Source of the DNA: Schmidtea polychroa
Taxonomy: Eukaryota
Length of the DNA stretch: 64,000 nt
Assembly (NCBI GenBank): GCA_044892525.1
Contig: CM097887.1
Coordinates: forward strand, 122,552,397-122,616,396
Reading direction: 5' to 3'
Shown here: positions 2 to 17,421 of the stretch, piece after piece
How positions within the stretch are numbered: the stretch's first letter is position 1
Layout: each line of letters starts with the position of its first letter
Notes under the pieces: model-generated
Told to the model about the DNA's origin: nothing
What the model saw: only the letters and a program-made list of their open reading frames with translations
Databases searched by the model: none
Translations under genes and position numbers: made by a program

Positions 2-3000
2 TATAAGAGAGAAAAGAAAGTAAATTGGAAGTTGATAGTAGGTTTTCTACCATTTTTGGCAAAAACAATGGTGTTGCACGGTCATTCTAAAGACATACAT
101 AGAATAAAACGATTGATCAAAATACTGACAAAAATAAAAGGAACTGACGAGGAAGTCGGTAGACGATTTCGGAAAACAATGTATGATGAGGCAACGAGAG
201 CGCAACTGAAAAAGAACAAACCAAAATTCCTAGACAGATTTAGAAATCGATCAAACAGCAGCGATAGTGATGATGACGACAACGGGAATGACAAATACCC
301 ATATCCAAGTAGAAACCCGAATGAAAAGCCAATAGAAACAGCGCCATACTGGGAGAAAGAAAAAACAAATACCTGGATAGCCAACGGAAGTTATATACCA
401 CCGGATATCGTTGGACAACAAGCAGCGCTAACCATGACACAAAATATGTATCCACAGTTACCAAGTCAACCAGGTATGAACTATATGCCGACCCGAAGAA
501 CGAAAAGTGTAGACCAAGCGGACGACGTAAGAACGATAGCAGTGATGAGTTCACCAGGAGGTGCGGCAGTAACAGTCATGATCCAAATCAACGGGAAAGA
601 GACAAGCGCCATGATAGATACCGGAGCAAACGTATCAGCAATAGCAATAAACCAAATACCCAGTAAATGTTGGAAAGATATCGAACAAACAACTATCCAT
701 ATCATCGCATGCAGTAAAGAAACCGTAGACGTAGTAGGAAGATGGTGGACTACGTTACGATATCAGGATAACGAAATTGAAACGTATCTAGCGGTGATAC
801 CCAAACTGAGTGAACCATGTATAATCGGAACGGATTTAATGCCGGAATTGTTTAAGGAAGTAGTAATCGATTTAACAACAATGTGTCTAAAAGACAAAAT
901 GGGTAGAATATGCAAGATGAACGCAATAATTAGATGCCCGGAGAAAATAATTGTACCCGCAAAATCACAGATGATATGTCAAATAAAAGTGGATGCAGGA
1001 ATGGAAGGAGAAGTCATTTTTGAGCCAAGCAAATCATTCGAAAAACGACGAGAATTACCATTGGCAAGAGAAATAATAACAATAAATGAAGACGGGGAAA
1101 TACCAATTAACATCACAAATTTCGAGGAAGAAGACAAGATCATATATGAAAATGAAAGATTGGGTAGATTGACACCCATGATAGACATCGAATTACCAAA
1201 AATCACCAACGAAACAACGAAAGCGGACGAATTATGGATAATTGATAGCACCTTGCTAACGGAAAAAGAAAAGGAGAGACTTCAACAATTATTGATAGAA
1301 TATAAAGATATATTCGCAATTTCGGATTTAGATTTGGGAGCATGCGATGTTACACTACACGCAATACCATTAATAGACGAAACTCCAATCGCACTACGTC
1401 CATACAAACTAGCAGAGAAGCAAAAAGAGATAGCCGAGGCAGAAGTACAAAAAATGCTAGATGCACAAGTGATCGAACCAAGTTGTTCGCCATGGCAATT
1501 TCCAGTAGTCATGGTGAAGAAAAAAGATGGTACTCAGAGATTCTGTATCGATTATCGGAAACTAAATGCAGTAACAAAAAGAGACACATACCCATTACCA
1601 GACATCAATGAGATGTTACTTATGTTACAGGGGGCCGCATATTTTACATCTTTAGATCTGAAAAGTGGATATTGGCAGATCAAAGTCAAGGAGGAAGACA
1701 AAGAGAAAACAGCATTCACATTGGGCCGAGATCTATACCAATTCAGGAAAATGCCGTTCGGACTGACCAATGCCCCAGCATCATTCCAGAGATGTATGAA
1801 TTTTGTCACACACGGGATCAAGCAATGTATGGTATATATTGATGATTTATTAATATATTCAGCAACTTTCGAACAACATTTGGAGGACATTAGAAACGTG
1901 TTCATCCGATTACGACAATGGAAACTGAAACTTAAACCATCCAAATGTGATTGGGCAAAAGAAAAAGTTACGTTCTTAGGACACATAGTGTCAGCAAAAG
2001 GCAAAGAACCAGATCCAAGAAACATAGAAAAAATAAAAACATGTCCAGCACCAAAAACTGTCACCCAAGTTCAAGAATTTCTCGGATTATGCGGATATTA
2101 TCGAAAATTCATCAAAAACTATGCAGGCATTGCGAAACCAATACAAGAATTAGTGAAAAAGGATATTTCATTTATTTGGGGTGCAGAACAACAAAAAGCG
2201 TTTGAGACATTGCGAGATAAATTAATTGAAGCCCCAATACTAGTACATCCTGATTTCAAGAAACCGTTCTTATTAGCAACAGATGCAAGTGGATATGCAG
2301 CCGGAGCAATATTGGGACAACTCGACGAGGAAGGGAAAGAAAGAGTGATTGGATACTACAGTAGAACGTTTAAAAAGCACGAGAAAAACTATTCCGTAAC
2401 CGAGAGAGAAGCGTTAGCAATCATACAAGCAATTAAACATTTTCGATATTTGTTATGGGGACACGAAATATGTATCACCACGGATCATCAACCATTAGTA
2501 TGGCTTGGTCAACACAAAGAAGCTTCAAGTAGATTGATGCGATGGGCAATGCAGTTACGAGAATATTCACCGTTCATAAAATTCAAAGCGGGAAGAGCGA
2601 ATGCCAATGCGGATTGTATGTCCAGATTTATCTTTCCAGATTTGGTAGATCACGAAATGCAACGAATATGTCTGATGGTAGCAGAAGATTTAGATTTTTG
2701 CCAATTACGGAAAGACCAACAAGAGGATACAGAGTTGAAGCAAATCATTGAATATGTGAAAACAGGGAAAGCAGAGGTATATGAGAAAGATCAAAAATTG
2801 AAGGAGCATATGGATAAACATCGACATCGATATATTATCGAGAAGGACTGGTTATTGATAATGGATGGCGAGAAAAGACTGATGTGCATTCCCGAGAATA
2901 GACGTAAAGATCTACTAACACAATACCATGACGGAAGACTCGGAGGACATATGTCATCTAAAAAGACGTTGGCACGAATGAAACAAAAATATTTTTGGCC

Positions 3001-5698
3001 TACATTGACCGAGGATGTAACGGAATGGGTGAAAAATTGCATAACTTGCGCAACCAGAAAAAACACGGGAACAAAATGGAAGGCACCATTAAAACCAATG
3101 CCAGTACCAGCAGAACCAATGACTATGATATCTATGGATGTAGTCGGTCCATTACCAGAATCAGATAGAGGGAATATATATATATTGGTGATTACGGATT
3201 ATTTGACGAAATTCCCCGAAGCATTCGCAATGGCAGATCAGAAAGCAAGAACAATCGCAAAAATACTAGTAGAGGAGATATGCTGTCGATATGGAACACC
3301 GAAACGGATATTAACCGATCAAGGGACAAATTTCATGAGCGAAATAATGAGCGAAGTCACCAACTACTTCAAGATCGCAAAATTAAGAACATCACCGTAC
3401 CATCCACAAACTAATGGTATGACAGAAAGATTCAATGGAACACTGATTCAAATGTTATCAAATTATGTCGATCGTCATCAACGAGACTGGGATGAATATA
3501 TAAAATTATGTCTAATGGCTTACAGAATGTCGATTCACGCGTCCACAAAGATGAGTCCGTTCAAGTTGATGTACGGCAGAGAATGCAATATGCCAATGGA
3601 TTTAGAATATCAGCCACCAATATCACAATACATGGAAATAGACGATTATGTAACCAAGTTCAAGGAAAGAATGCAGGAAATCTGGGAAACTGCAGGATTG
3701 AATATAAAATTTTATCAAGAAAGTTACAAAGATCTACATGATAGAAAGAAAAACGTCAAACAGCATACGTTTCAAACAGGCGATTGGGTGATGATCGAAA
3801 CACCAGAATTAATTCCAGGAACCACCAAAAAATTACAACGAAACGGTAAAGGGCCGTATGAGATTCTATTCGTCGGAGAAACTAATGTAAGAGTACGATT
3901 AATGAACAACCCTTTTACAAGACCAATATACGTAAATGTTGCACGATGTAAGCCAATTCCGAAAACCGCCACCAGTCAGCCAGAAGGACGTACATTAACG
4001 ACAAGATCACAAACGTATAGAATAAACATGTTACAGCAGATAAACGAACCAACAGGTAATCGATTAGGGTTACAACCATCAGAAGCCGAGAAAATCATAA
4101 AGGAAGTAAAAGTTAAAATGCCCGGATGGGCAGAAGACAGATTAGATTTTGAGATATTGGGAGGTCTGCTAACAATGATCGAAAATTATGCAAACCGAGA
4201 AAGAACACACCCATTACTCAGGGTAGTAAAAAGTCAATGGCCTATATTATTTACGATCACAGACCACTATGGAGATACACCGCTGCACAAACTTTTAAAG
4301 GTCGGGAATAATGAACAAATACTGGAAACGATCGAAGCATTTCGCGATTGTAACATTTCGACGGATCAAGAAAACAACCAAGGTTACACCCCACTAATGA
4401 TAGCAGCCAATCGGGATAAAGCTAAAGATATTATCATCGCATTACTTGAAACTGGGTCAAAGATAACCACACAAGACCACAACCAGAAAAATGCACTACA
4501 TCATGCAATCGAAGGGAAAAGTACGGAAGCCTTCATAATCTTAGTAGATCTATTATCATATGAGGATAATAGGGAGATAGGAAACATGTATGACGGGTTA
4601 TTAACTGCAATCAAAGAGAAATTAATAACAATTACTGGAATACTAATTGCGTGGAGGAACCCGATCAAAAACGATTATATGGTAGATATAAACGAAACAT
4701 TTACCAAAGGAGAAAACACCTTGATGAGAGAAGCGATGAGAGGACATCACCTATTCGAAATTCCAAAACAACTACTACAACGTGGCATAAAGTTCTCAAA
4801 TCACAAAGACGAACAACTAATCAGAAAACGAATTACCAACTTAGAAAAAGCTATATCTCAATTTACCGATAAAGTACAAGTAAAATTTTGGGAAACCGTG
4901 AGTGTTTTACATATGATGGAAACTATGAACAACATTCGAGAAAACTACCTAAGTATTATTCAAGTTCTAACGGCAGAGGAACGCATTAACAGTTCGAACA
5001 AGAAAAAGATAAAAATAAAGAAAGTAAAAGCAAGAGAGTCTGAGGAACAAGTCGATCAAACAATAACCGATATAGCAACAACAAGTAAACCAAAGACAAT
5101 AAACTCCGACCAAGAGATAGTAGTACGTAAGGCTAAAGAGGTATTCTTTGAAGAAATGCAAGATCTATCCGATGAAGCGATACTATCAAAAATAACAAAA
5201 ACAGTACACACCTACGCAAGAGACCAGACCACAAATCTAGACATAGAAAAAATAAAAACATTTATACCACTAGCATTCACCTTACCAACAAAAGATTCAA
5301 GAACACCATTACAACAAGCCATTTTAGCAGCAAAAGAAAACAGAGCAATAACCATCATAAGAATCCTCAGGGACTTCGGAGAAGAATCTAATGCAAAAAA
5401 TGAACAAGGAGAAACGGCAATGATGTATGCAGCAATAACAAAGATACACCCGAAAACCTTACATATACTACATCAATCAGGTTCGAGACTGGATGAAATA
5501 TCAAACGAAGGAAATTCTACCATGGATTGGGCAACAATACAACCAAACTTGGAAATGATTAGATTCATTTGTAAAAATGCTACAAGAGCTGAGGTAGAAA
5601 ATATCTGTAAAAACACGTCACAGTTCCAATGGAACGATACGGATGAACTTAGAAGCTATGAAGTTATTGCTAACATGGAGAATACCACAAAGCAATAA
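2..5698 (+). CDS. pol: Retrotransposon polyprotein: aspartic protease, reverse transcriptase, RNase H, integrase, plus C-terminal ankyrin repeats (5'-truncated by the window edge)
   Basis: Frame is open from position 2 (the track's start at 32 is TTG). Protease SAMIDTGANVS (DTG at 617-625); RT RFCIDYRKLN, MPFGL and YIDD (1835-1846); RNase H LATDASG, EREALAI, TDHQPL; integrase HDGRLGGH...CITC, MDVVGPLP, TDQGTNF, ERFNGTL, GPY; ankyrin-like GDTPLH, GYTPLMIAA, QKNALHHA, RTPLQQA, GETAMMYAA. Confidence 0.97.
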   Translation, partial: YKREKKVNWKLIVGFLPFLAKTMVLHGHSKDIHRIKRLIKILTKIKGTDEEVGRRFRKTMYDEATRAQLKKNKPKFLDRFRNRSNSSDSDDDDNGNDKYPYPSRNPNEKPIETAPYWEKEKTNTWIANGSYIPPDIVGQQAALTMTQNMYPQLPSQPGMNYMPTRRTKSVDQADDVRTIAVMSSPGGAAVTVMIQINGKETSAMIDTGANVSAIAINQIPSKCWKDIEQTTIHIIACSKETVDVVGRWWTTLRYQDNEIETYLAVIPKLSEPCIIGTDLMPELFKEVVIDLTTMCLKDKMGRICKMNAIIRCPEKIIVPAKSQMICQIKVDAGMEGEVIFEPSKSFEKRRELPLAREIITINEDGEIPINITNFEEEDKIIYENERLGRLTPMIDIELPKITNETTKADELWIIDSTLLTEKEKERLQQLLIEYKDIFAISDLDLGACDVTLHAIPLIDETPIALRPYKLAEKQKEIAEAEVQKMLDAQVIEPSCSPWQFPVVMVKKKDGTQRFCIDYRKLNAVTKRDTYPLPDINEMLLMLQGAAYFTSLDLKSGYWQIKVKEEDKEKTAFTLGRDLYQFRKMPFGLTNAPASFQRCMNFVTHGIKQCMVYIDDLLIYSATFEQHLEDIRNVFIRLRQWKLKLKPSKCDWAKEKVTFLGHIVSAKGKEPDPRNIEKIKTCPAPKTVTQVQEFLGLCGYYRKFIKNYAGIAKPIQELVKKDISFIWGAEQQKAFETLRDKLIEAPILVHPDFKKPFLLATDASGYAAGAILGQLDEEGKERVIGYYSRTFKKHEKNYSVTEREALAIIQAIKHFRYLLWGHEICITTDHQPLVWLGQHKEASSRLMRWAMQLREYSPFIKFKAGRANANADCMSRFIFPDLVDHEMQRICLMVAEDLDFCQLRKDQQEDTELKQIIEYVKTGKAEVYEKDQKLKEHMDKHRHRYIIEKDWLLIMDGEKRLMCIPENRRKDLLTQYHDGRLGGHMSSKKTLARMKQKYFWPTLTEDVTEWVKNCITCATRKNTGTKWKAPLKPMPVPAEPMTMISMDVVGPLPESDRGNIYILVITDYLTKFPEAFAMADQKARTIAKILVEEICCRYGTPKRILTDQGTNFMSEIMSEVTNYFKIAKLRTSPYHPQTNGMTERFNGTLIQMLSNYVDRHQRDWDEYIKLCLMAYRMSIHASTKMSPFKLMYGRECNMPMDLEYQPPISQYMEIDDYVTKFKERMQEIWETAGLNIKFYQESYKDLHDRKKNVKQHTFQTGDWVMIETPELIPGTTKKLQRNGKGPYEILFVGETNVRVRLMNNPFTRPIYVNVARCKPIPKTATSQPEGRTLTTRSQTYRINMLQQINEPTGNRLGLQPSEAEKIIKEVKVKMPGWAEDRLDFEILGGLLTMIENYANRERTHPLLRVVKSQWPILFTITDHYGDTPLHKLLKVGNNEQILETIEAFRDCNISTDQENNQGYTPLMIAANRDKAKDIIIALLETGSKITTQDHNQKNALHHAIEGKSTEAFIILVDLLSYEDNREIGNMYDGLLTAIKEKLITITGILIAWRNPIKNDYMVDINETFTKGENTLMREAMRGHHLFEIPKQLLQRGIKFSNHKDEQLIRKRITNLEKAISQFTDKVQVKFWETVSVLHMMETMNNIRENYLSIIQVLTAEERINSSNKKKIKIKKVKARESEEQVDQTITDIATTSKPKTINSDQEIVVRKAKEVFFEEMQDLSDEAILSKITKTVHTYARDQTTNLDIEKIKTFIPLAFTLPTKDSRTPLQQAILAAKENRAITIIRILRDFGEESNAKNEQGETAMMYAAITKIHPKTLHILHQSGSRLDEISNEGNSTMDWATIQPNLEMIRFICKNATRAEVENICKNTSQFQWNDTDELRSYEVIANMENTTKQ

Positions 5699-7253
5699 AT
5701 ATGCAATAAATATAAATGAGTTCTACGAAAACGGAGAAAATGCTATGGTTAAAAATACACTAACAAAAGGAGGAACTCCGAAAATCATAATGATCGTATT
5801 AAACAGGGAAGATCTCAAATTCACGCAGAATCTAAACGAACAAAAGCGAATCGGGAAACATCGTCGGATACAATTAAGAGAATTAGTGAAAGAATGGAAT
5901 AGAAAGAGACATGTAGCAACAGGCAGAAAGGAGTTCGAATTCGAAGCAAAATTAGCAAGAAACAGAGTGCTAACGGCATACCGCAGATTGTTGAATGATA
6001 TAAATGTCGAGGACGACATTTTAAACGATAGCGGGGGAGATAAAGACGATAAAGACGACGATAATAATGAAAAAGGTCGAAACGGGAATAAAGAGAAAGA
6101 GAAATCAGAGGAGAATAATCAAGAAAATAACGACGCGAGTAGGAAAAAAGAGGAAAATAACCCGAGAAACCGAATAAAGCAAGAAGAAAAGACGAATAGT
6201 GGAAAACAGAGGGTATGCCTACTTTTTACCAACAAAGAAATGGAGACAAATATGATGATAATGATACTCGTATTAACAATGGTGGAAATGATAACAGCCC
6301 AGGGAGGAATGAGAACGATAAAAGAAGCCAAAGAAACGGAAAATAAGGACAACAAAGAAGAAGAACTAAAACAAGAAAAGAAAAAACAAGTACAAGAGCA
6401 GCAATGGGATCTAAAAGAAGAATGGGATTTAAAAGAAAGGTGTATATTAGGAAGATGTATGTCTAGAGCTTATCAGAGACTAGTGTTAAAAAATGAAGAT
6501 GCAGAACCAATAACGGAAGTAAGAATACAAGAAGCATACCGAAATCGAGACGGAAAGAGAATAACGAAAGTCAAAGGGAAGGAGGTACACCTGGGAAAAG
6601 GAGGTGAGGTAGTGATAACGCAACTCCAGCCAAGAAAAGAACACAAAGTCTGCATTGCAAGATTAAGACCGGGTGAAGACTGTCTACAATATGTAATACA
6701 GCAACAACCTCCAAAAGAATACACAATATGCATCTGGAGAAAAGATACAGCGAGAGAATGTCGACGATACCCTGGGAAAAGAGGGAGGAAAAGAAAAATC
6801 AATGATGAAAAAGATGAGCAAGGAAAACGCAAGAAAAACAGTGAGAAACATCAAGACAATTATGTATCCGAGGAGGAGATGGAGAAAATACAAAAAATGG
6901 CAAAGGAAGGTATGAACGAGGAAATAGCAAGAATACGAGGAATGATGAAAGGAAATGGCAAAGAAGGTAATCTAAAAAGCACAGAAGCAATATCAACAAT
7001 AACGAACAAGGAAAAAGCGGAAATTATAAGCGTAAAACAGATGATGTGGATCAGCGGCATAATAATAACAGGGGCCTTTTTAATCATAACGGGGGGGACA
7101 ATAAAAATAATCAAAGATAGACGGCATCGCGGAGAACTAGAAATGGCCAGAATAAGAAATTTTCAACATCGTGTAAAACGACCAAGTAATATCAAGCAGG
7201 AACAGTGGGTGGAGGCCTGGAATGCTCAGCGCCCTCCAAGCTCACGTATATAG
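5643..7253 (+). CDS. ORF2: N-terminus continues the ankyrin array of pol; the C-terminal part (from ATG 6240) resembles a type I membrane protein
   Basis: LLLTWRIPQSNKYAININEFYENGENAM matches ILIAWRNPIKNDYMVDINETFTKGENTL in pol. Hydrophobic MMIMILVLTMVEMITA, a six-Cys region, TM-like WISGIIITGAFLIITGGTI and a basic tail. Confidence 0.75.
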   Translation: MNLEAMKLLLTWRIPQSNKYAININEFYENGENAMVKNTLTKGGTPKIIMIVLNREDLKFTQNLNEQKRIGKHRRIQLRELVKEWNRKRHVATGRKEFEFEAKLARNRVLTAYRRLLNDINVEDDILNDSGGDKDDKDDDNNEKGRNGNKEKEKSEENNQENNDASRKKEENNPRNRIKQEEKTNSGKQRVCLLFTNKEMETNMMIMILVLTMVEMITAQGGMRTIKEAKETENKDNKEEELKQEKKKQVQEQQWDLKEEWDLKERCILGRCMSRAYQRLVLKNEDAEPITEVRIQEAYRNRDGKRITKVKGKEVHLGKGGEVVITQLQPRKEHKVCIARLRPGEDCLQYVIQQQPPKEYTICIWRKDTARECRRYPGKRGRKRKINDEKDEQGKRKKNSEKHQDNYVSEEEMEKIQKMAKEGMNEEIARIRGMMKGNGKEGNLKSTEAISTITNKEKAEIISVKQMMWISGIIITGAFLIITGGTIKIIKDRRHRGELEMARIRNFQHRVKRPSNIKQEQWVEAWNAQRPPSSRI

Positions 7254-7421
7254 AAAGGATTATGACTGTATATAGATTGTAAAAAGTAAGTAGGTAATAT
7301 TTATTTATATAACAGTATTCTATATTTTTATATAAGCGCGGTATCAATAGTATATAATGATGGGGATAATTAATATGAAAATAAAATTAGATAAGGATTG
7401 AAAAGTATATATAAATTAAGA

Positions 7422-7781
7422 ATGGAGCGAATAGGCGAGGAAGTAAATCACAGTACAACAACCGAGGAGATGTGGAAACAACAATGTGCAATGTTAACTC
7501 AAGTGATTTCGAATTTACAGGAACAAGGACTCGCTGTACAAAGAAGCTTAGTCGAAAGTTTAAATAAAGGCTTCAGTTATGTAAGAATAATCGAAGATCA
7601 ACGAATAAAAATAGAACAAATGCAGCGAGAGATAGACCGAATATCACGATACAGCCAGGTGCAAGAAGAGGAGTTAATAAGAATCGCGGAAGAGATGGAG
7701 CGAGAGGAGATAGAAGACTGGTCAGAATGGTTAACCAGCAGGGAAGAGGGCGGACAAGAGGCCGACTCTTCCAGCCAATAA
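7422..7781 (+). CDS. Small acidic coiled-coil accessory protein (119 aa from ATG 7422)
   Basis: Open frame with the element's A-rich codon bias, Q/E-rich helical sequence, flanked by AT-rich spacers. The track start at 7398 is TTG; the first ATG is at 7422. Confidence 0.7.
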   Translation: MERIGEEVNHSTTTEEMWKQQCAMLTQVISNLQEQGLAVQRSLVESLNKGFSYVRIIEDQRIKIEQMQREIDRISRYSQVQEEELIRIAEEMEREEIEDWSEWLTSREEGGQEADSSSQ

Positions 7782-7870
7782 ATATAACCTAAAATAGCAA
7801 TGTAAATAACTGTAAATAAAAATACGAAACTGTACCAGTAACGAATATATGTATATATATAATTATAGAA

Positions 7871-9258
7871 ATGGATAAGCGACAACGAGAAGAATTCAAA
7901 GAAATTGTTGAACAAATCAGAAAGTCCACCACAATTCGAATACACAACCATGTAACGTGTGGAATATGCAAGAGCTTATTAAGAGAACCTCACCAAACCA
8001 GATGTGGATGCAGAATGTGCAGAGAATGTGTAGAGGAGATAATAAAGAAGGGACCACAATGGTGCCCAGTATGCAAAGAAACAATGATAACAAGTTTGGG
8101 AGATACAAACGAAGATAAAGCAGCTGTAAAAGATATGTCGAATGCAAACCTAGGATGTAAAAACACCCATGTAATTGGCGAGGAGTGATATGGGAAGTGA
8201 GGCAACATATGGAGCAATGTGAATATAAAATCAGTCAATGCAAACGTTGCCAAGAAGAGATTAAAGTCAATGAAGAAGCAGAACATCAAAGTCGATGCGA
8301 AGAAAGACTGGAGAAATGTGAGTATTGCGGAGAAACCGACACCTGGAAAAAACTAATCAGTCAACATCACAACATACAAGAGGAGAAAGTGTGCGCAGAA
8401 TTCAGAGGAGAATGTCCCAATAAATGCGATAAACCCGGAGTAATAAAACTCGCTCAACATCTGAAAGAATGTGAAAGGAAAAAGATAAGGTGTGTGTTAG
8501 GAAAATGGGGATGTCAGAAACAATTACACCGAGGGGAATTACCCCAACATCTAGCAGAAAACGTATCAACACACGCGGAAATATGGTCAACGGTATTACA
8601 AGAAAACGAAAGGAAAACCGAAAACTTAGAAAGAGAAATAGTCTCGCTAAAAGCGTTGGTAAAGGAACTATTGGAAGAAAAGGAAGCATTTGAAGAGGCG
8701 AGAACAAGTACAAAGATACAGACAAATCTAGTAGAAACTAGCAACATTATGGTGAAAGAACTACATCAAAAAGTAAGCGAATTAAACCTCAACGAATTAA
8801 TACCTACGGCTCCATACATATGGAAAATAACGGGAGTAAAAGAGAAGATGCAGAGAGCGAGAAATGGAAAGGATACAACCTTACTAAGTCCAGCATTCTA
8901 CTCATGGAAAAACGGGTATAAAATGAAAATGAAAGCATACCCCAATGGGGATGGAAGTGCATACGGAACGCATTTCTCAGTATTCTTCTTGATGTGCAAA
9001 GGGCCATACGACGAGTTAATAGAATGGCCATTCAAAGCAAAAATAGACCTCGCAATGATGAACTATCAAAGTATACATGAACAGAGTTTCCATACAGCGG
9101 GAAACCTCGTATGTTACCAAAGGCCCTTGGAAGAAGAAGGACCAGCAACTGGAGCACCAAATTTCATCCTACAGCGGAAAGTAGAAGACATGACGAGAAA
9201 CGACACTATATACATAAAAATAGCGGTGAGGCGAGACGGGAAGAGTAGGACTGAGTAG
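7871..9258 (+). CDS. TRAF-family protein (RING, TRAF zinc fingers, coiled coil, MATH/TRAF-C), intronless, split by a 1-nt frameshift near 8160-8170
   Basis: RING CGIC...QTRCGCRMCREC...CPVC in 7871-8188. In the other frame PCNWRGVIWEVRQH, then C/H zinc fingers, a coiled coil and MATH motifs YIWKI, SPAFYS..GYKM, YPNGDG..GTHFSVFF..KGPYD..EWPF, YQRP. Confidence 0.92.
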
Positions 9259-9473
9259 AGAGACGAATAATTTTGTATATACTAATTGTAAATATCGGCG
9301 TATATATCCAGTAAAATATTATATAATAGTGTAGAAAACCCCAAATCTACCAAAGGTAAACTTAAGCGAAAAACTCCTAAAACAACTCCTATAACGAATT
9401 ATAAAAATAAATAAATAATAAACCAGATATAAGCGTACAACGTTAAGTTAATGATATCGTTATTTAGACAAAG

Positions 9474-10511
9474 ATGACACAAGAAGGAACTGAAGCCCCA
9501 AACCACGAAACCAAAGTCAATAAAATCCATAAGGGAAAATGGGTCAAAGTAATGTTACAATTGACGAACCAGACCCACAACCACCTCGAAGAGGCCAGGG
9601 AATACGAGAATAACAAATATCAGTGGTTAGTAAACAATTTAAGAGCCGAAGCAGAAGCATGCAAAAGAGCCTCTAAGTGGGCATCATTGGAAAACACTCG
9701 CCAAGAAGCGCACAGCCACTATTTAAAACAGTTAGTGCAGGAAGCACGGAAACGATTGACGGACGAAAACACAAAACGAGAAGCAGAAAAACAAAAGGAA
9801 GGAAGGAAAATGAATCACCTATTGGCAGAAGCCCGAAACTGGAAGCGGCAGAACAAAGAGATGAAAAAAGAAATGAAAGAATTGCCTATGAGATTAGAAT
9901 ACGAAAGCGAACAAGGCAAATGGGAGGAAAATCTGGTCATAAGAGAAGAACTGAAACGGCTCAGAAAGATTGCGGCCCGAAGCCAAACATGGCAGACCAA
10001 AGCCATGGAATTTGAAAGACATCTAGCCATGAAAATCTCCATAAGGGAGCACGAGAATGCCGCAATGGAAGAACTGATACTTCAACAGTCAGGACGACTC
10101 GTGGAACTGGTAAATAAGGTCGCAGAACTAGAACGAGATGTCAACGGATACCAAGGAGCTCTGGAGCAGAGAAATATGGTACTGGCGGGGAAAAACAAAA
10201 AGTTAGAAAACGAAAGGAAAATGTATAACGAAAATCTCAAAAATCTGGAGATAGAGATCAAGAAATGGGAAAACGGCGAAAAAGCGGAAGAGTTAGAAAA
10301 ACAGATAGAGGTACGGGATGACGAAACTAGGTATTTAACCTACCTATTGGACGAGGAACTCAATGTGTCAAGAGCGCTAAGAGACGAAGTCCAAGAACTT
10401 AGAGCGCAGATTCCCCGGTACTACATCCCATTTGATCCCATCGCACTCCAATTACAAACGTCAGTAGAAAGCGATGAAGGATATGTAGGCCAGGAAGAGA
10501 CCTTTGTATAA
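9474..10511 (+). CDS. Long coiled-coil accessory protein (345 aa)
   Basis: ATG-to-stop ORF, E/K/R/Q/L-rich helical sequence, element codon bias; no catalytic motif recognised. Confidence 0.8.
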   Translation: MTQEGTEAPNHETKVNKIHKGKWVKVMLQLTNQTHNHLEEAREYENNKYQWLVNNLRAEAEACKRASKWASLENTRQEAHSHYLKQLVQEARKRLTDENTKREAEKQKEGRKMNHLLAEARNWKRQNKEMKKEMKELPMRLEYESEQGKWEENLVIREELKRLRKIAARSQTWQTKAMEFERHLAMKISIREHENAAMEELILQQSGRLVELVNKVAELERDVNGYQGALEQRNMVLAGKNKKLENERKMYNENLKNLEIEIKKWENGEKAEELEKQIEVRDDETRYLTYLLDEELNVSRALRDEVQELRAQIPRYYIPFDPIALQLQTSVESDEGYVGQEETFV

Positions 10512-10684
10512 AGATAAAGGGGAAGATAAAAAATATAAAAATCGGGACCTGTATCCCAACCAAAAAATTAATGGTACGGTAAAAGTATGAAAGGGACTGT
10601 AACCCTGATTATAAAATAACATATAAATGTATAAGTATAAGCCGCACTGTAGCGCAATTATTAATTACGTATATATTATAGAAA

Positions 10685-11386
10685 ATGAACGCTGAGAACG
10701 GACAATCTATCATAACACCTATAATTGAATTAGAAGAGGGGGAAATTGAAGTTGATGAAGTGGAAAGGAAGAAAACTATCAAGGAAGAATTACAAGAAGA
10801 GAGACAGGAAAACGAAAGATTAGTAGAAAGGTGGAGAGATAATCGAAAAATGATTAAAGTATTGAAAAGAGAATATATCTTGTTAGAAGGAGTAAAGAAA
10901 GAAGTAGAGGAAGAAAACGAATGGCTTCACGAGCAAAGAAAGCGAGGGAGAAATTGGGAAAAGATCGCGGAAGAATTATGGCAGGAGAGGGCCAGTCGAA
11001 AGGCCGACGAAGTGATTAGTGACTATTGGAAAACCGAGGCACGGAAACACCAAGAAAGCCTGAAAGAGTTACAACTCCAACTACACCAAAAACAGAAGGA
11101 ATGTGAGATAATGAGACGAATGAACAACAAATACCAGGAAATAGACAACGAAGAAGACGGGGAAAGGGAAAATGATTTTCTACAGATAATGAACCATAAA
11201 AACCTCGAAAGAGCAACACAAGAAATAAAAGCACTAAAAGAAAAAATAATAACCCTAAAGCAACAGTTAGACGAAAGAGACAAACAATTAAAAGTACTAC
11301 CCGAATTGAGAAAACGAGTAATAAAAGCAGAAACGAGAGTGATGAGAACATCCGAGAAAACCCGTAAAAAGAAAACCCGGCAATAA
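10685..11386 (+). CDS. Coiled-coil accessory protein (233 aa) with a basic C-terminus
   Basis: ATG-to-stop ORF, E/K/R-rich, ends RKKKTRQ. Confidence 0.78.
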   Translation: MNAENGQSIITPIIELEEGEIEVDEVERKKTIKEELQEERQENERLVERWRDNRKMIKVLKREYILLEGVKKEVEEENEWLHEQRKRGRNWEKIAEELWQERASRKADEVISDYWKTEARKHQESLKELQLQLHQKQKECEIMRRMNNKYQEIDNEEDGERENDFLQIMNHKNLERATQEIKALKEKIITLKQQLDERDKQLKVLPELRKRVIKAETRVMRTSEKTRKKKTRQ

Positions 11387-11441
11387 TTAAAGATGAATGA
11401 TCAATGTAAATAATTGTAAATAAAAATTTTCGTATAGTAGT

Positions 11442-12077
11442 ATGTGGTTCGGAACAACCCTGATGACAATAATGATGATAGCGATAAACGGAATACCCAT
11501 GGGGCAGCCAATCCCAACACTCTGGGAGAATCCCGAGAAACAGCAAAACCCGTTAACCAAACTGAAAAGCGAAAGAAAGCTCTCCAACAACATCCCGAAG
11601 CAATGCTGGAACAAAGCCGTCTGGCAAAAACTTCAAATGCAACTCCACCTACAAACCCAAAAAATCGAACAGCTCGAAATTCTCTTACAAGAACAAACCA
11701 CCCAACAATCCTTGAAGGAAATCATCGTGAAGAAGGAAGTAAAAGAAAGCCAAGTCTTACTCTATGCTACCATCAGTGAAACCCTTATCATCTGCGCATT
11801 AGTCATCTGGAAAGCATATGATATTCATCGAACATGGAGAAGAAACCAGTCACTATCCGAGAAACACGAAAGAAAGAACCCACGACCGAAAAATAAACAT
11901 AAACGAGCAGTACATTTTCAACAACCAAACCCACCCGACCAAATGCAACTAAATCTATCTCCTGATCAAATGCCTGTTACAATCCAGCTCCCCACGATAA
12001 CAACTTCAACCAGCCATCCGACCCAGAATTCAACCAACCAAGACAGTAATAACATTCCGAACCTTGAGATCATGTGA
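11442..12077 (+). CDS. Putative type I membrane accessory protein (211 aa)
   Basis: Signal-peptide-like MWFGTTLMTIMMIAING, Q/L coiled coil, TM-like VLLYATISETLIICALVIW, a basic stretch and a P/Q/T/N-rich tail. Confidence 0.72.
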   Translation: MWFGTTLMTIMMIAINGIPMGQPIPTLWENPEKQQNPLTKLKSERKLSNNIPKQCWNKAVWQKLQMQLHLQTQKIEQLEILLQEQTTQQSLKEIIVKKEVKESQVLLYATISETLIICALVIWKAYDIHRTWRRNQSLSEKHERKNPRPKNKHKRAVHFQQPNPPDQMQLNLSPDQMPVTIQLPTITTSTSHPTQNSTNQDSNNIPNLEIM

Positions 12078-12839
12078 CATCGACCATTCATAAACTTTGT
12101 GTGTATAAATCCGGTCACCTAAAGTGGCCACTGCTTGCTTATATTTGTCCTTTTATCTGTTTAATTAAAGTATTATTTAGTTATTTTAATTTTATGTTTG
12201 TGTGAATGATGATCGTGAAATTAGTTGTTATGCCGAAAAAAGGTATGATTTAAACGTATGATATTATGTGAATTGCGGGGCGCAATTTTAACGGGCCCCG
12301 GAGTGATTTGTTGGGCTAAAACGTGGAGTTTCGAAAACTGGAGCAAATAGAAAAGTAATCCTTGAAAAATTAACGAAATAAAATAAAAATATAAAGTACC
12401 ATCAAATTCTCACTAATAAAGCAAAAAGGAACAATAAAATATCAATAAGAGAATAAGAATAAGTAAAACAAACTAAATAAAACCCAATAAACCCCTTGAG
12501 ATTTAGAAATAAAGCGATTTAGGACCCAGCAGATGAAATAGAATAAAATAAGTAAAAAAGTGACAACAAATAAACGAGAAATTTAAGAAATAAATAAAAA
12601 AAAATAAAACTATCTTTAAGTCTAATTAAAACAAAAAATTATATTACAATAAAAATAGGAGGAAAATAATAAAAATAAGAAAATAAATAAAATAATAATA
12701 AGAAATAAGTTAAGTCATTAAAATCTAATATATTATAATAAAAAACATAAAAATAATAATAAATAGTAAAAATACAAACAAGTCGTGTCCTGATTGGACG
12801 AAAAATAATATATAAGGAACGGAAAATATCTGTAGATTA

Positions 12840-12919
12840 CCATTTTTAAAAAATATTCTACAGGTGACCATTTTTAAAAAATATTCTACAGGTGACCACT
12901 TTTAAAAAATATTCTACAG
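12840..12919. repeat. 28-bp tandem repeat, about 3 copies (CCATTTTTAAAAAATATTCTACAGGTGA)
   Basis: Units start at 12840, 12868 and 12896 (third unit partial, one mismatch). Confidence 0.92.
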
Positions 12920-15219
12920 ACTTGACAGATTTCGGAACCTTTAATTAGCCTACAGCGAACTAGTTCAGAGATTTCCAAACCAAACCGAGGAAGGAATATA
13001 TAGAGGCCAAACTACAAATCCATTCGGGAAAAAATCTTAAATTCAACCGATTTTAACTTCAGTTTTCGAAACTCAAGGTATGCCTCGACAGTTGTTTTAT
13101 TTATGGTTATTAGGTTAATTTCGTTAATTATTATAAATATAATAAAACAATTTCATATAATAAATTTATTTAAATGAAAAGTTGCCTTTCTTCATGGTAC
13201 CGGCGACTGTACCATCTGAGAGCTCCCAGTATGATGTGGACGAGTTGGAATTGCACTGCAGTTGAGGACACCACCGTGGAAAGGTTGGTATGCATAAGAA
13301 ATCACGAACATGCTGAAAGGAGAATGTGATATTTGTAGAGAGTGATATTGTCATATTAGATATCCATCAAGGAGACGAGGAGGTTTCGGTTACGTAGGAG
13401 GAGCAACATCATACTCGGAGATCCAAATGATATGGTCGCCGGGTAAATTTTATTTATGCATTTTTCTATCATTCAGTTTGATTATTGTATTGTTGATTTG
13501 ATTGCATGGAAACGAGTTGATTGGTCCCTCATGACGGTGCAAGGAGGCGGCAGCAATGAATGCCTTCTTGGGTGTGTCGTGAGGGGTGAAGAAACTCAGT
13601 AGGTGGAACATCCAGTTGATAAGTGAAAATTTCCTTCATCAAGCGCGATCGTCCATAGAGCTTACCATCGATTCATTTAGCCCAATCGAGATTTCCAGTA
13701 GATGTAGAGATGATTTGAATTCCGAATGCAGGCAGTTCAGAGCGAGATAGGCAGTGACGATAATAATCCACATAGCTAGGAGAAAGATTTTTTTTTTGAT
13801 ATTCAGCCGGTCAATCGACGTAGCTAGGAAAGAGTAGTGTTGACCATGGATTGCAAGTAAATCCAACGATTTTTCAGTGACGCTCTGTGTTTGCAAGGTT
13901 CTGTCTGATTTGTGCCGTCATGATGTTAGTGGTTACATCCATTGCCGATGTACTCTTACGATTTGATTGTCGTCCGTGAGTCGCCAATGCTAGTGATAAA
14001 AATCTCTCGCTGACAGGGAAGTAAACATCTTGTAGGGAAATTATCAAAATTCTTACTTCGAGCTCGCAGACAGTAGTTGCCAACGATAACGAAATCAGTT
14101 GATTTACATTAGCCAGCGTAGAGTTAGTCGACAGGAGATATCTGATAATGTCCTGGAGAAAGAGATAACATGTTAGTTTTTCTGGGGAAACGTCAAATGG
14201 ATAAGCTGATAGTCATTGATCTGAATTTAGATCGTAAAAGGAAATTAGATGATAATGTTGAGCTTACCCAATAATCTATGAAGTTGTCGCCCACTCAGAT
14301 TGAATAATCTGCTTTTCCAATTCATCTACGGCTGCTTATTTGAGGGATCTATTACGCAACCACTATTATTCCGACTTGAGCATGCACATACACACGCACC
14401 ACAGTCAAATATACATAGGGCAGTGTAAAAGTAAATACACAATTTTTGGTGAGGTAATAGCGGTATGATGATGTGAATTTTTCTAGAACGGTGAGATAAT
14501 AGGATGAGGTAAAGGAATGGATTTCCCCTACACAACTCGATATATCATAATTTCTCACAACAGCATAAACCATCATTCGCAGTGATAGCCAACATACAGT
14601 TACAGATACCACCAGGAGTAATGACACACCTACACAGTCAATCATAATGCATAATCACAAGTGAACGTTTTCCATGACGACGATTTCGACGCGTTATTGG
14701 AATTAATTAGATGTAGATTTAGAGCAGAATTTTCAACTGATCACTTGATCAATTCCATAATTTTGAACGAGATAAAAACATAAATAATCTATTCCGTCGC
14801 CGTGAATTATTTCTCTGTACTTTTAGGTACGCCTACATCGACGGATTGCCATAATGATATCGGCAAATTTTTAAATAAAAATATACTAAGGGGAACAAGG
14901 TGGAAGGGTTTTTCAGTGAGAAAGACGAGTTTTACCTGGGGATGGTCCCATCCGAAAGTAAACCCAAAGGGCGAGGTTCATGTAGAGAGAATTTTCCGTA
15001 TGAAATCCCCGTTTCCTTTTCTTAATTTACACGAATTAGGTGAAGAGATTTGAATGTTTACAACTGAATGACTGCGTATAGAGATGGATGAAGAAGTGTG
15101 TGGGTCATCGTTGGGTGGTATGCTTGATAAACTCCAAAGCCACGCTCAAAAATTTGATTATTCTTTTCTCACTAATAGAGGTTTTTCCGAGTAAATATAA
15201 ACAATGATTGATTTTCTAG

Positions 15220-15981
15220 ATGGCTACATCGTCCAACCACGCCAAAGAACTTCGCCCGTGTTTTTCTTGTGCGGACAAGAACGCGGATATCGCCCAACTG
15301 CATTTATATATCGGGGCTCTCAAAAAGAGAATTGATCTCTATGAAGGAACGTGGTTCTCCCCGCCACAAATGAAAGAGGAACGCAAGAAAATTCTCCGAT
15401 TAGAGCATTGCAGGGACAGCCTGCTAGAGGAAAGCCGGTGTCAGCGGCTCACCATCAAAGCGCAATCGGAAGCCCTCCATAAGGTGTATACGGAGGCAGA
15501 ATTGGCTAAGCGGGTGCGAGAATTTCCCGTTCTAGAGGGGACGAATGTCTTTCCCCCTCACCACCCGTCTCCTACTTCTTCCAGCTCGCACTGCCAGGGG
15601 CACGGCTCACAACTGCCGCCCATTCCAGCCCCGGTGTTGTCAAGTCACCAGCCAAAGACAGGTGGACCTACCAATCCCATCGTAGCTCCAATCCTGGTAG
15701 CACAAATCGGTACCACGAACACCGAAAACCCCCCGACTACCCGCAAACGGAAACGGCCAACTCGAGCCGAGAAGAACCAAAAACGCCGAGATGCGATGAC
15801 AGCACTCGAGACGTCCTTATCGGCGGCGAATTCAAAAATCCAAGAGATAACGTCCTCCCATTCAATCCCCTCAAAGGAAGTCTTCCGCATTGTTCCAGCT
15901 GAGGGCATCAAATACATTGTAGATAGCCGATTACCGGTCGACATAGATGAGATACTGGCCGATGGAGATAACTTTGTTTAA
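15220..15981 (+). CDS. ORF inside the candidate LTR (253 aa): CxxC, coiled coil, P/S/H-rich linker, basic NLS-like segment
   Basis: ATG-to-stop ORF directly preceded by TTTTCTAG. Contains PCFSCAD and RKRKRPTRAEKNQKRR. Visibly more GC-rich than the upstream ORFs. Confidence 0.7.
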   Translation: MATSSNHAKELRPCFSCADKNADIAQLHLYIGALKKRIDLYEGTWFSPPQMKEERKKILRLEHCRDSLLEESRCQRLTIKAQSEALHKVYTEAELAKRVREFPVLEGTNVFPPHHPSPTSSSSHCQGHGSQLPPIPAPVLSSHQPKTGGPTNPIVAPILVAQIGTTNTENPPTTRKRKRPTRAEKNQKRRDAMTALETSLSAANSKIQEITSSHSIPSKEVFRIVPAEGIKYIVDSRLPVDIDEILADGDNFV

Positions 15982-16805
15982 CGTGACGTACAATTGAGTT
16001 TGATTTCCTCTTCATTGAGTTGTAAATTATCTTGTGAATGTTGCTAATGTTATGTCTTTTTGACTGCTGTTGATCTGTTAGTAGTAACGATATTTTTATA
16101 GTTTCAGCGTCAATAAAATTTTTTTGTTTGATTTCAGTTTTGTCGAGTTTTCATATATTTGTTTGTGCAATTAGGATAAATGAGATAATGCTGCGGAATG
16201 AAGGTAATTAAAGTTGAAGGTCGTTCCTTTGGACCAGGATCAGACTGAGTGACACGCATGTATGTGGGTAAGTCCTTCTAAGGCACCGTAGGACCCGAAC
16301 CGAGAAAGGGTTAGGAGTAGTCCTAAGGCAGGGGCTCACCTGCTAACTTTTTCCGACCCGTGTGAGCAGCACCAACATGGAACATCACCATGGGCTCATA
16401 CGTGGGAATATGCAATCGATCATTTGGAGTATGTGTAAGAAATGTATAACTGAGTAATGATGCTTGATAGGTGTGATGGAAAGGCATGCATAATTTTCTT
16501 TCTTCTCCACATACGCCAACACGTATGAAAACAGAAAACGTTAATTAATTAATTAATTGGCTAATGGAAAACCCGAGCCAATGGAGAACCCGAGAGATAA
16601 AGGAAACCCGAGCTGGGTAAACAAGAAGAAAGGCAAACAAAAGGAAAATTTGGGCCCATTAGCTTGACACAATGATTAATGGGAAAAGAGTAAGGAGAAG
16701 ATAGCGCGCGTAGGAAGACCGGTAGGGCCATTAATTATCTGGATTCGTTGGACCATTATGGATGACAGCCGAAGCAAACACGTAGGAGAAAATGTCAAAC
16801 GAAAG

Positions 16806-16909
16806 ATTGGCTCGGCAATAACCATTTGTCATCCTGATTTCGAGGAGTATATAAGCAAAGGGAAAATCAGAGAAAATCGGCATTTTGCCTCAGGTAGGTT
16901 AAGAAGAAT
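16806..16909 (+). promoter_or_regulatory. Putative LTR promoter (CCAAT box, TATA) and downstream splice donor
   Basis: ATTGG at 16806, TATATAA at 16848-16854, TCAG about 30 nt downstream, CAG|GTAGGT at 16901-16909. The TATA and donor are not conserved in the related LTR at 42.8 kb. Confidence 0.4.
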
Positions 16910-17421
16910 TAGACTGTAGGAAAAGTGGTAAACGAATTAGGGAAGTAGGGAAAAGAAGAAATAGAATTAAGAATACGGAAAGGCGAAAAGGGATCAAACC
17001 AAAGAGAAACCGAGGAAAAAGAGAGTCGAGATAACTAAAGGATCAAAAGGTGAATATTGTTTGTTTGCAAAGCATCAACGCCGAGCGGAGAATCGTATAA
17101 AACTTTGATTGGTAATTGTAGCGTGATAATAAATTGTGAACTTGTTGTTTCAATATACGTTGGGTCGTTCATTGTTTTACTTTAAAGAACACCAGGAGTC
17201 AGAGAGAACCGACTTGAAATAATCCAAAACCCAACAGACTAATGAAATCAACAAAGTATTTGATCTTTTGTCAAAACAAAAATAGAAGAAATGACAATTA
17301 ATCTCAACAATTCTTTTGAAATAAGTAATGAGTAAAATCTAGTTATTTTTTTTATTTTAGTATGAATCTGGACATTTAAAACAAATATCAAGTAATATCA
17401 ATATTTGATACAACCCATTAA

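What the first reader, a model, noticed from the sequence alone, without database searches (positions are those of the whole stretch)
7414..15222. Each accessory ORF has an acceptor-like AG just before its ATG
TTAAG|A-ATG (7422), TTATAG|AA-ATG (7871), TTTAGACAAAG|ATG (9474), TTATAG|AAA-ATG (10685), TATAGTAG|T-ATG (11442), TTTTCTAG|ATG (15220). Downstream ORFs of one long RNA need separate mRNAs. Options are alternative splicing from a shared leader donor (CAG|GTAGGT at 16901-16909, which would be repeated in the 5' LTR) or spliced-leader trans-splicing, which flatworms have. Caveat: AG is common in this A/G-rich strand and the donor reads CAGCTAGG in the related LTR.
Basis: inference. Interest (0 to 1): 0.7.

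Follow-up and report, generated by a model that had tools for sequence, protein, structure and literature searches.

The report
Conserved splice acceptors in giant retroelement
Every extra gene of this 30-kb Burro-type retrotransposon starts right after an AG that is kept across very diverged relatives, so the element likely makes a separate spliced RNA for each gene, as complex retroviruses do, although no spliced RNA has been seen yet.

Summary
The six AG-ATG motifs are exact. They lie in a Burro-type giant Gypsy element. An AG ends 0-3 nt before the ATG of 7 of 7 accessory ORFs here and 8 of 8 in a second family with 25-34% protein identity; background is 32%. In 20 of 20 diverged LTR copies the LTR ORF keeps a pyrimidine tract plus TAG or CAG while upstream letters change. 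These are very likely real 3' splice sites. Cis-splicing from a non-coding 5' exon fits best: one family-2 ORF begins AG|TG and needs one base from an upstream exon, a frame an AUG-ended flatworm leader misses, and AATAAA is not enriched in spacers. The donor is unresolved and no junction was observed. Spacers also carry Pumilio-type UGUAHAUA motifs. The scan noted a Burro element in this genome before (another feature), not this pattern. Known element, undescribed expression plan in my searches.

The parts
2..5698 (+). 3' part of the gag-env-pol polyprotein frame (protease, RT, RNase H, integrase, ankyrin repeats); gag, two CCHC knuckles and a viral fusion domain lie upstream in the same frame (L015)
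5643..7253 (+). 536-aa frame: C-terminal piece of the polyprotein, separated by a frameshift in this copy; no acceptor before its ATG
   Evidence: one ORF in a related copy
7286..7291 (+). donor-like GTAAGT about 33 nt after the polyprotein stop; kept in family 1b, absent from the family-2 spacer; role unknown
7414..7420 (+). likely acceptor AATTAAG, 1 nt before ATG 7422 (ORF B, 7422-7781, 119 aa); reads TTAG in a related copy and AATAG in family 2
7863..7868 (+). likely acceptor TTATAG, 2 nt before ATG 7871 (RING-TRAF-MATH gene, 7871-9258, broken by a frameshift in this copy)
9462..9473 (+). likely acceptor ATTTAG 6 nt before ATG 9474, or the AAG directly before it (ORF C, 9474-10511, 345 aa); relatives keep ATTTAG at 2-3 nt
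10676..10681 (+). likely acceptor TTATAG, 3 nt before ATG 10685 (ORF D, 10685-11386, 233 aa)
11432..11440 (+). likely tandem acceptor TATAG/TAG, 4 or 1 nt before ATG 11442 (ORF E, 11442-12077, 211 aa)
7267..11422 (+). eight TGTA(A/T)ATA motifs in the spacers (7267, 7801, 7811, 7850, 9274, 9287, 11405, 11415), Pumilio-element-like; none in 11.4 kb of coding sequence on this strand
12309..16520 (+). 3' LTR of the Burro-type element (4212 bp, TG..CA); 5' copy 99.9% identical about 26.4 kb upstream; 4-bp target duplication CGTA
15210..15981 (+). acceptor TTTTCTAG directly before ATG 15220 and the 253-aa LTR-borne ORF (no Pfam family; basic clusters)
16112..16117 (+). poly(A)-signal-like hexamer (AATAAA, or AATATA/AATACA in most relatives) followed by a T-rich tract
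   Evidence: variants listed in PMC5068929
16213..16418 (+). conserved hairpin block near the LTR end; holds candidate donor GG|GTAAG at 16268

Best explanation
The AG before each accessory ATG is likely a 3' splice site, and the Burro-type element likely makes a set of subgenomic mRNAs by cis-splicing a short non-coding 5' exon from its LTR or leader onto each of these sites. Shown: the motifs, their enrichment, their conservation, the layout of the element. Inferred: one LTR-started RNA serves unspliced as genome and polyprotein mRNA; spliced forms each put one accessory ORF first (7 here, 9 in family 2); the 5' exon carries no reading frame, because the AG-to-ATG distance changes between orthologues; in family 2 it would supply the first base of a split start codon for the second LTR ORF; UGUAHAUA motifs after the stops would act as 3'-UTR control sites. 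The donor is open: best candidates are GG|GTAAG at 16268 in the LTR and GAAA|GTAAGT 290 nt after the primer-binding site.
For: AG 0-3 nt before ATG in 7 of 7 and 8 of 8 ORFs against 32% background; TTNYAG in 7 of 15 sites against 1.9% of all 4663 AGs and 0 of 66 other spacer AGs; T at -5 with Y at -3 in 11 of 15 against 7.6%. 8 of 15 AGs are out of frame with the ATG, and TAG is replaced by CAG in 2 of 20 LTR copies and in families 1b and 2, so a stop-codon effect does not explain it. 20 of 20 diverged LTR copies keep pyrimidine tract + YAG|ATG under about six different upstream sequences. Host TRAF exon starts placed by homology have the same AT-rich type, TTAAG included. Family-2 LTR ORF2 begins YAG|TG with the conserved coding frame two bases on, in six subfamilies (57-100% aa), about 45 codons before its first ATG; gypsy env gets its start codon by splicing too (PMC2585583). 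AATAAA is not enriched in spacers (6 vs 5.7 shuffled; 7 vs 6.8), which fits shared 3' ends. Spliced accessory or env mRNAs are shown for Cer1 and Tor3a.
Against: No junction was observed. No single donor is shared by all families: 16268 is kept in 19 of 20 family-1 copies and family 1b, but its GGGT is base-paired in a conserved hairpin block, so structure may explain it, and family 2 has no GT at the matching place. The leader donor is the top one in 6 of 9 family-1 leaders, weakened in 2, absent in 1. Family 2 has its strongest donor elsewhere, upstream of its LTR ORFs, and it ends in G, not A. The invariant TG could also be a GTG start read without a split codon. Families 1 and 2 are related, so the sites are not independent events. 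For ORF D of family 2 and for some family-1b ORFs I chose the ATG that matches the homologue although an in-frame ATG lies 15-18 nt upstream. The start site of transcription is unknown.
Confidence: 0.6

Rival explanations
1. The AGs are acceptors for the host spliced leader: the accessory block works like a flatworm operon and each ORF is freed by trans-splicing.
For: Spacers are 55-215 nt, the range of flatworm operons (300 bp threshold in PMC12582326; peak near 100 bp in PMC8629364). Flatworm SL acceptors read UUNYAG, met by 7 of 15 sites. Planarians have SL trans-splicing (PMC10899757). No donor is shared by all families. In four spacers an AATAAA sits about 35 nt after the stop. Cis and trans use often share acceptors in flatworms, so both may occur.
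Against: AATAAA counts are at shuffle level and the +35 copies mostly overlap the TGTAAATA motif. Flatworm leaders end in AUG; at family-2 LTR ORF2 that AUG opens a frame closed after 25-45 codons, not the conserved one, and it would be out of frame at 8 of 15 other sites. I could not read a planarian SL sequence itself.
Confidence: 0.17
2. Each ORF has its own internal promoter in the AT-rich spacer, and the TAG-ATG motif marks a start site or a favoured translation context, with no splicing.
For: Tor3b/4b env is made from an internal promoter (PMC4402516). Spacers hold TATA-like runs (TATAAG, TATATA). TGTAAATA also resembles a forkhead DNA site (recalled).
Against: The C/T freedom at -3, the fixed T at -5 and the pyrimidine tracts are acceptor features. 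The shortest spacer is 55 nt. The TGTAHATA motif is strand-biased (34 on +, 1 on -), as expected of an RNA element. ORF2 of family 2 has the acceptor without an ATG behind it.
Confidence: 0.11
3. Translation runs from unspliced or few RNAs by reinitiation or internal entry, and the motif is a translation signal or the relic of an upstream stop codon.
For: 7 of 15 AGs are in frame with the ATG, several as TAG.
Against: 8 of 15 are out of frame, CAG replaces TAG in several relatives, and true stops of the upstream ORFs lie 55-215 nt away.
Confidence: 0.08
4. Chance in an A/G-rich strand.
Against: Holds out of sample in 1 of 1 further ORF, 8 of 8 in family 2, 20 of 20 LTR copies; the two non-gene ATGs lack it.
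Confidence: 0.04

Closest known systems
Burro / GYPSM1 giant gypsy-like LTR retrotransposons of planarians (described in PMC6431247, section 7 read whole; Grohme et al. 2018 not held)
   Same: About 30.6 kb, 4.2-kb LTRs, gag with CCHC knuckles, fusion-glycoprotein domain in frame between gag and pol, PR-RT-RH-IN, ankyrin repeats, RING and MATH/TRAF cargo, BIR gene in family 2, many young copies.
   Different: That section lists accessory ORFs but says nothing on how they are expressed; the acceptors, the split start and the spacer motifs are not in it.
Drosophila gypsy env (PMC2585583, passages)
   Same: Gypsy-type element, downstream gene made by splicing, start codon formed at the junction (AT|G).
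   Different: One spliced gene there; 7-9 predicted acceptors here, and the predicted split is A|TG; env here is inside the polyprotein.
C. elegans Cer1 CERV (PMC10309623, passages)
   Same: Invertebrate LTR element with tRNA-Pro primer site, a spliced accessory protein, and conserved acceptors before the initiator ATG.
   Different: One multi-exon accessory mRNA sharing coding exons with gag; here separate single-exon ORFs behind a likely non-coding exon.
Oikopleura Tor elements (PMC4402516, passages)
   Same: Shows both routes for a downstream gene in invertebrate LTR elements: splicing from the 5' LTR RNA (Tor3a) and internal promoter (Tor3b/4b).
   Different: Only env is concerned.
Complex retroviruses such as HIV-1, HTLV-1, foamy viruses (recalled)
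   Same: One 5' donor joined to many acceptors, each just upstream of an accessory start codon; ORFs inside the LTR; structured RNA near the LTR end.
   Different: Retroviridae of vertebrates; this element is Ty3/Gypsy-like; no junction shown here.
Flatworm operons resolved by SL trans-splicing (PMC12582326, PMC8629364, passages)
   Same: Short same-strand spacers and TTNYAG-type acceptors near the start codon.
   Different: No poly(A) signal excess in the spacers; one acceptor needs a frame that an AUG-ended leader does not give.

Membership tests
Burro giant gypsy-like elements | total length near or above 30 kb with long LTRs | tested here: met
   LTRs of 4212 bp about 26.4 kb apart, 30.6 kb in all
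Burro giant gypsy-like elements | gag, env-like fusion domain in frame before PR-RT-RH-IN | tested here: met
   Retrotrans_gag, zf-CCHC, Monjiviricetes_fusion in L015; RVP, RVT_1, RNase H, rve in the window
Burro giant gypsy-like elements | cargo domains: ankyrin, RING, MATH/TRAF, BIR | tested here: met
   ankyrin, RING, MATH in this copy; BIR only in family 2
Burro giant gypsy-like elements | identity to a named Burro1-4 or GYPSM1 sequence | not testable with these tools
   no reference sequence held; the Nature paper is not held
Burro giant gypsy-like elements | dugesiid planarian host | tested here: inconclusive
   inferred from the layout of the element only; genome and runs carry coded names
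U2-type 3' splice sites | YAG with T at -5 and T-rich upstream | tested here: met
   11 of 15 against 7.6% of all AGs; two sites end in AAG, a type also seen at host exon starts placed by homology
U2-type 3' splice sites | junction seen in RNA | tested here: inconclusive
   only contigs of runs guessed to be RNA, tables cut
U2-type 3' splice sites | branch point | not tested
   no host branch-point model built
Retrovirus-like cis-spliced subgenomic mRNAs | a major donor in the 5' LTR or leader, downstream of the start site | tested here: inconclusive
   candidates 16268 and L015:436 kept within family 1, not shared with family 2; start site unknown
SL-resolved operon | same-strand genes at most about 300 bp apart | tested here: met
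   spacers of 55-215 nt
SL-resolved operon | poly(A) signal after each cistron | tested here: not met
   AATAAA at shuffle level in both families; variant hexamers not tested
SL-resolved operon | SL joined at the acceptors | not testable with these tools
   no raw RNA reads offered

The most novel reading that the evidence does not exclude
The giant element runs its accessory genes as an operon that the host spliced leader resolves, alone or beside cis-splicing, with Pumilio-type sites after each stop: a mobile provirus-like element that has adopted the host's trans-splicing to express seven to nine host-control genes.
Probability: 0.17. Interest if true: 0.8.

Novelty: new variant of a known kind. 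Interest (0 to 1): 0.52.

Why it matters
Burro elements are among the largest LTR retrotransposons and carry apoptosis and ubiquitin regulators in ORFs that an ordinary LTR RNA cannot translate. The conserved acceptors say these genes are likely expressed and give exact junction places to look for in existing planarian RNA data. If cis-splicing holds, a Ty3/Gypsy element has reached a complex-retrovirus-like plan with 7-9 acceptors on its own. If the spliced leader is used, it would be a mobile element organised as an operon. The predicted split start codon and the Pumilio-type motifs give two further direct tests, the latter linking the element to stem-cell RNA control (inferred).

Tried and rejected
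RNA: no RNA holder listed. Contigs of three runs guessed to be RNA and one untyped run, laid on 4000-12600, showed no GT..AG joint among 15 listed joints (24 not shown) and no loose end at the five acceptors in that range among 21 listed (431 not shown); some contigs bridge spacers, which DNA or unspliced RNA would also do. This says nothing either way. Spliced genomic copies: none at two LTR donors, at the leader donor (one match, control level, unrelated), or at three acceptors (203 unspliced matches for one of them). could only see exons not ending in G; only the family-2 ORF2 site was covered for all exon ends; such copies need not exist. Protein N-termini from public data, as a test for an SL-derived Met: no homologues found for two queries. 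Rfam: no family in the LTR region (two matches at E about 5). The hairpin block as an element-encoded SL RNA: rejected, its U-rich stretch is paired with compensatory changes; the single window sequence folds only modestly better than shuffles (z -1.7). UGUA as a poly(A) enhancer: PMC5068929 reports no UGUA enrichment before planarian poly(A) sites. GT at 16204: not kept in 6 of 20 copies and its context varies. A third, shorter Bcl-2-bearing family gave no comparable accessory block in the stretches read. Papers not held: Grohme et al. 2018 and the planarian SL3 paper; their text and supplements may already bear on Burro transcripts. No supplements were read.
Full report
What the region is. 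The window opens inside a long + strand frame with protease, RT, RNase H, integrase and ankyrin repeats, followed by short same-strand ORFs that include RING and TRAF/MATH domains. Upstream of the window the same frame holds Retrotrans_gag, two CCHC knuckles and a Monjiviricetes fusion domain. A 4212-bp LTR (12309-16520) has a 99.9% identical partner about 26.4 kb upstream, with TG..CA ends, a 4-bp target duplication and a primer-binding site that looks like tRNA-Pro (label recalled). LTR pairs about 26.3 kb apart occur across the genome, and the accessory region has at least 40 copies at 99% or more (40 of 350 candidates scored). This is the layout described for planarian Burro elements (PMC6431247, section 7 read whole). 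The host is inferred to be a planarian from that layout alone.

The observation. Tests out of sample: a seventh accessory ORF upstream of gag, outside the window, reads TTTAG|AT ATG (L015:600). A second family in the same genome, whose accessory proteins are 25-34% identical where they align (its ORF E and first LTR ORF do not align), has the same gene order plus a BIR gene, and 8 of 8 ATG-started accessory ORFs have an AG 0-3 nt upstream, 7 of them TAG (shuffle P 1.7e-6 for YAG; 1.7e-4 for 5 of 7 here). For its ORF D I used the second ATG, which is the first in one copy and lies 15 nt behind an in-frame ATG in another. Nine starts listed for an intermediate family (1b), picked as the homologous ATG, have an AG 1-4 nt upstream.

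Why these look like acceptors. Over the 15 sites of families 1 and 2, T is at -5 in 12 and at -3 in 13. TTNYAG fits 7 of 15, against 1.9% of 4663 AGs in the elements and 0 of 66 other AGs in the spacers; UUNYAG is the motif reported at flatworm SL acceptors (PMC12582326, passages). I took 20 of the 150 LTR-ORF matches, spread from 95% to 76% identity: the 35 nt before the ATG fall into about six unlike types, yet 20 of 20 end in a pyrimidine tract and YAG|ATG, 18 with TAG and 2 with CAG. CAG also appears in families 1b and 2, and 8 of 15 AGs are out of frame with the ATG, so upstream stop codons do not explain the pattern. Host TRAF genes, where I placed the last exon start by homology only, show ATTATTCAG, AAATTTCAG, CCATTAAG and AATTAAG: the same AT-rich type, including the odd TTAAG of site 7422.

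CAGGTAGGT is at 16891-16899. It is outside the element's LTR, in the 3' LTR of a smaller Gypsy (LTR about 1.05 kb) into which this copy inserted; its other copy is in that element's 5' LTR, 18 kb upstream of the Burro-type element. The CAGCTAGG version at 42807 belongs to a relative of that outer LTR. It cannot serve the family. The ORF at 15220 is inside the true LTR.

Other donors. In the true LTR a rough donor matrix (recalled frequencies) finds 16204 and 16268. GG|GTAAG at 16268 is kept in 19 of 20 copies and in family 1b, about 155 nt after a poly(A)-like hexamer; 16204 loses its GT in 6 of 20. But 16268 lies in a block of hairpins (9 of 50 predicted pairs with compensatory change in 14 sequences) in which its GGGT is paired, and the matching place in family 2 has no GT. 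A leader donor GAAA|GTAAGT 290 nt after the primer-binding site is the top score in 6 of 9 family-1 leaders, weakened in 2 and absent in 1; family 2 has GAAA|GTGGGT or GTGAGT at a similar place and a strong AAG|GTAAG (GCAAG in one copy) upstream of its LTR ORFs. The donor and the start site remain open.

Cis or trans. The AG-to-ATG distance changes between orthologues (ORF B 1 or 2 nt; TRAF 1 or 2; ORF C 2, 3 or 6), so the upstream exon gives these ORFs no reading frame. One site is informative. The second LTR ORF of family 2, homologous to ORF 15220, has a strong acceptor followed by TG and then a conserved coding frame, about 45 codons before its first ATG, in six subfamilies (57-100% identity; one further copy lacks this stretch). 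TG is fixed while the next codon varies. The simplest reading is a start codon completed by the last base of the upstream exon (A|TG), as gypsy env is (AT|G; PMC2585583, passages); the window family has AG|ATG at this place. A GTG start is the alternative. Flatworm leaders end in AUG (I could not read a planarian one), which here would open a frame closed after 25-45 codons. AATAAA in the spacers is at shuffle level (6 vs 5.7; 7 vs 6.8), against one poly(A) site per gene, though in four spacers a copy sits about 35 nt after the stop. For trans-splicing: spacers of 55-215 nt, the TTNYAG type, and no shared donor. I put cis-splicing at 0.6, SL at 0.17, internal promoters at 0.11, translation signals at 0.08, chance at 0.04.

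A second spacer signal. TGTAHATA occurs 8 times in 700 nt of spacers here (shuffle mean 0.64) and 7 times in family 2 (0.72), 0 of 1000 shuffles reaching either, and not at all in 11.4 kb of coding sequence on this strand. Over four subfamilies the middle base is A 16, T 16, C 2, G 1; most copies lie 13-30 nt after the stop; one lies on the minus strand. This matches the Pumilio element UGUANAUA (recalled; the term is in the listing, papers not opened). UGUA is reported not to be enriched before planarian poly(A) sites (PMC5068929, passages). It fits each spacer being the start of a 3' UTR; function is untested.

RNA. No junction was seen and the available data could not show one; details are under Tried and rejected. 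The claim rests on sequence conservation.

Known and new. The element is a Burro-type Gypsy. Splicing of a downstream gene is known for gypsy env, Cer1 CERV (PMC10309623, passages) and Tor3a env, and internal promoters for Tor3b/4b (PMC4402516, passages). Searches for Burro with LTR, retroelement, accessory, subgenomic, spliced or long-read terms listed no paper on how Burro accessory ORFs are expressed; PMC8532177 and PMC11410931 (passages) do not treat it. The original Burro paper and its supplements could not be read. The scan had noted a Burro element in this genome for another feature and nothing like this pattern. New variant of a known kind, interest 0.52.

Noticed in passing
window 16521-17236; L012:7277-8317; L014:5597-5928: The Burro-type copy is nested in the 3' LTR of a smaller, young Gypsy element (LTRs about 1.05 kb, 99.7% alike, gag and pol in L012-L013), with target duplication CGTA.
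   Followed up: yes
window 16213-16418; L053:9040-9264: Conserved hairpin block at the LTR end with compensatory changes; families 1, 1b and 2 share a short CCTYCTA..GG word in it although the LTRs do not align otherwise. No Rfam match. Candidate packaging, export or 3'-end element.
   Followed up: partly
window 15220-15981; L053:7822-8187 and 8398-8867: LTR-borne ORFs without Pfam family, with basic clusters (RKRKR, KRKR, an AT-hook-like RGRP word in family 2). Candidate regulators of the element's own RNA or promoter (speculation). The 5' LTR copy of the window element gives a shorter frame (192 aa) than the 3' copy.
   Followed up: partly
L015:2847-3402; L054:3973-4282: The gag frame is open 185 codons (family 1) or 103 codons (family 2) upstream of its first ATG, with acceptor-like sites in it; the polyprotein may start by splicing or at a non-ATG codon.
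   Followed up: partly
L120:7759 (+); L111, L115, L119 (-): A third family with a polyprotein frame of about 3050 aa and a weak Bcl-2 match has CTATAG|G directly before its gag ATG in 4 of 4 stretches read.
   Followed up: no
window 5643-5698 and 8188-8209: This copy is frameshifted within the polyprotein C-terminus and within the RING-TRAF gene.
   Followed up: yes
window 7286-7291: Donor-like GTAAGT about 33 nt after the polyprotein stop, kept in family 1b only.
   Followed up: partly
window 7782-7870 and 11387-11441: Two spacers share ATGTAAATAA.TGTAAATAAAAA, and the same unit occurs in family-2 spacers: the spacers look like copies of one module.
   Followed up: partly
L015:146; L053:9274: The primer-binding site is set off from the LTR end by several bases, and the 3' LTR is preceded by a GC-rich word rather than a clear polypurine tract.
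   Followed up: no
L015:1630-2170; window 12840-12920: Tandem repeats in the leader (about 80-bp units) and in the LTR (three copies of about 28 bp).
   Followed up: no
G000:C2, many loci (L022-L045): A large cluster of host TRAF-like genes with introns, beside intron-poor ones (L016-L019); possible source pool of the element's TRAF cargo.
   Followed up: no
window 18395-19642, 27929-29140, 48512-49843 (- strand): Three ORFs of 400-440 aa elsewhere in the window, not examined.
   Followed up: no
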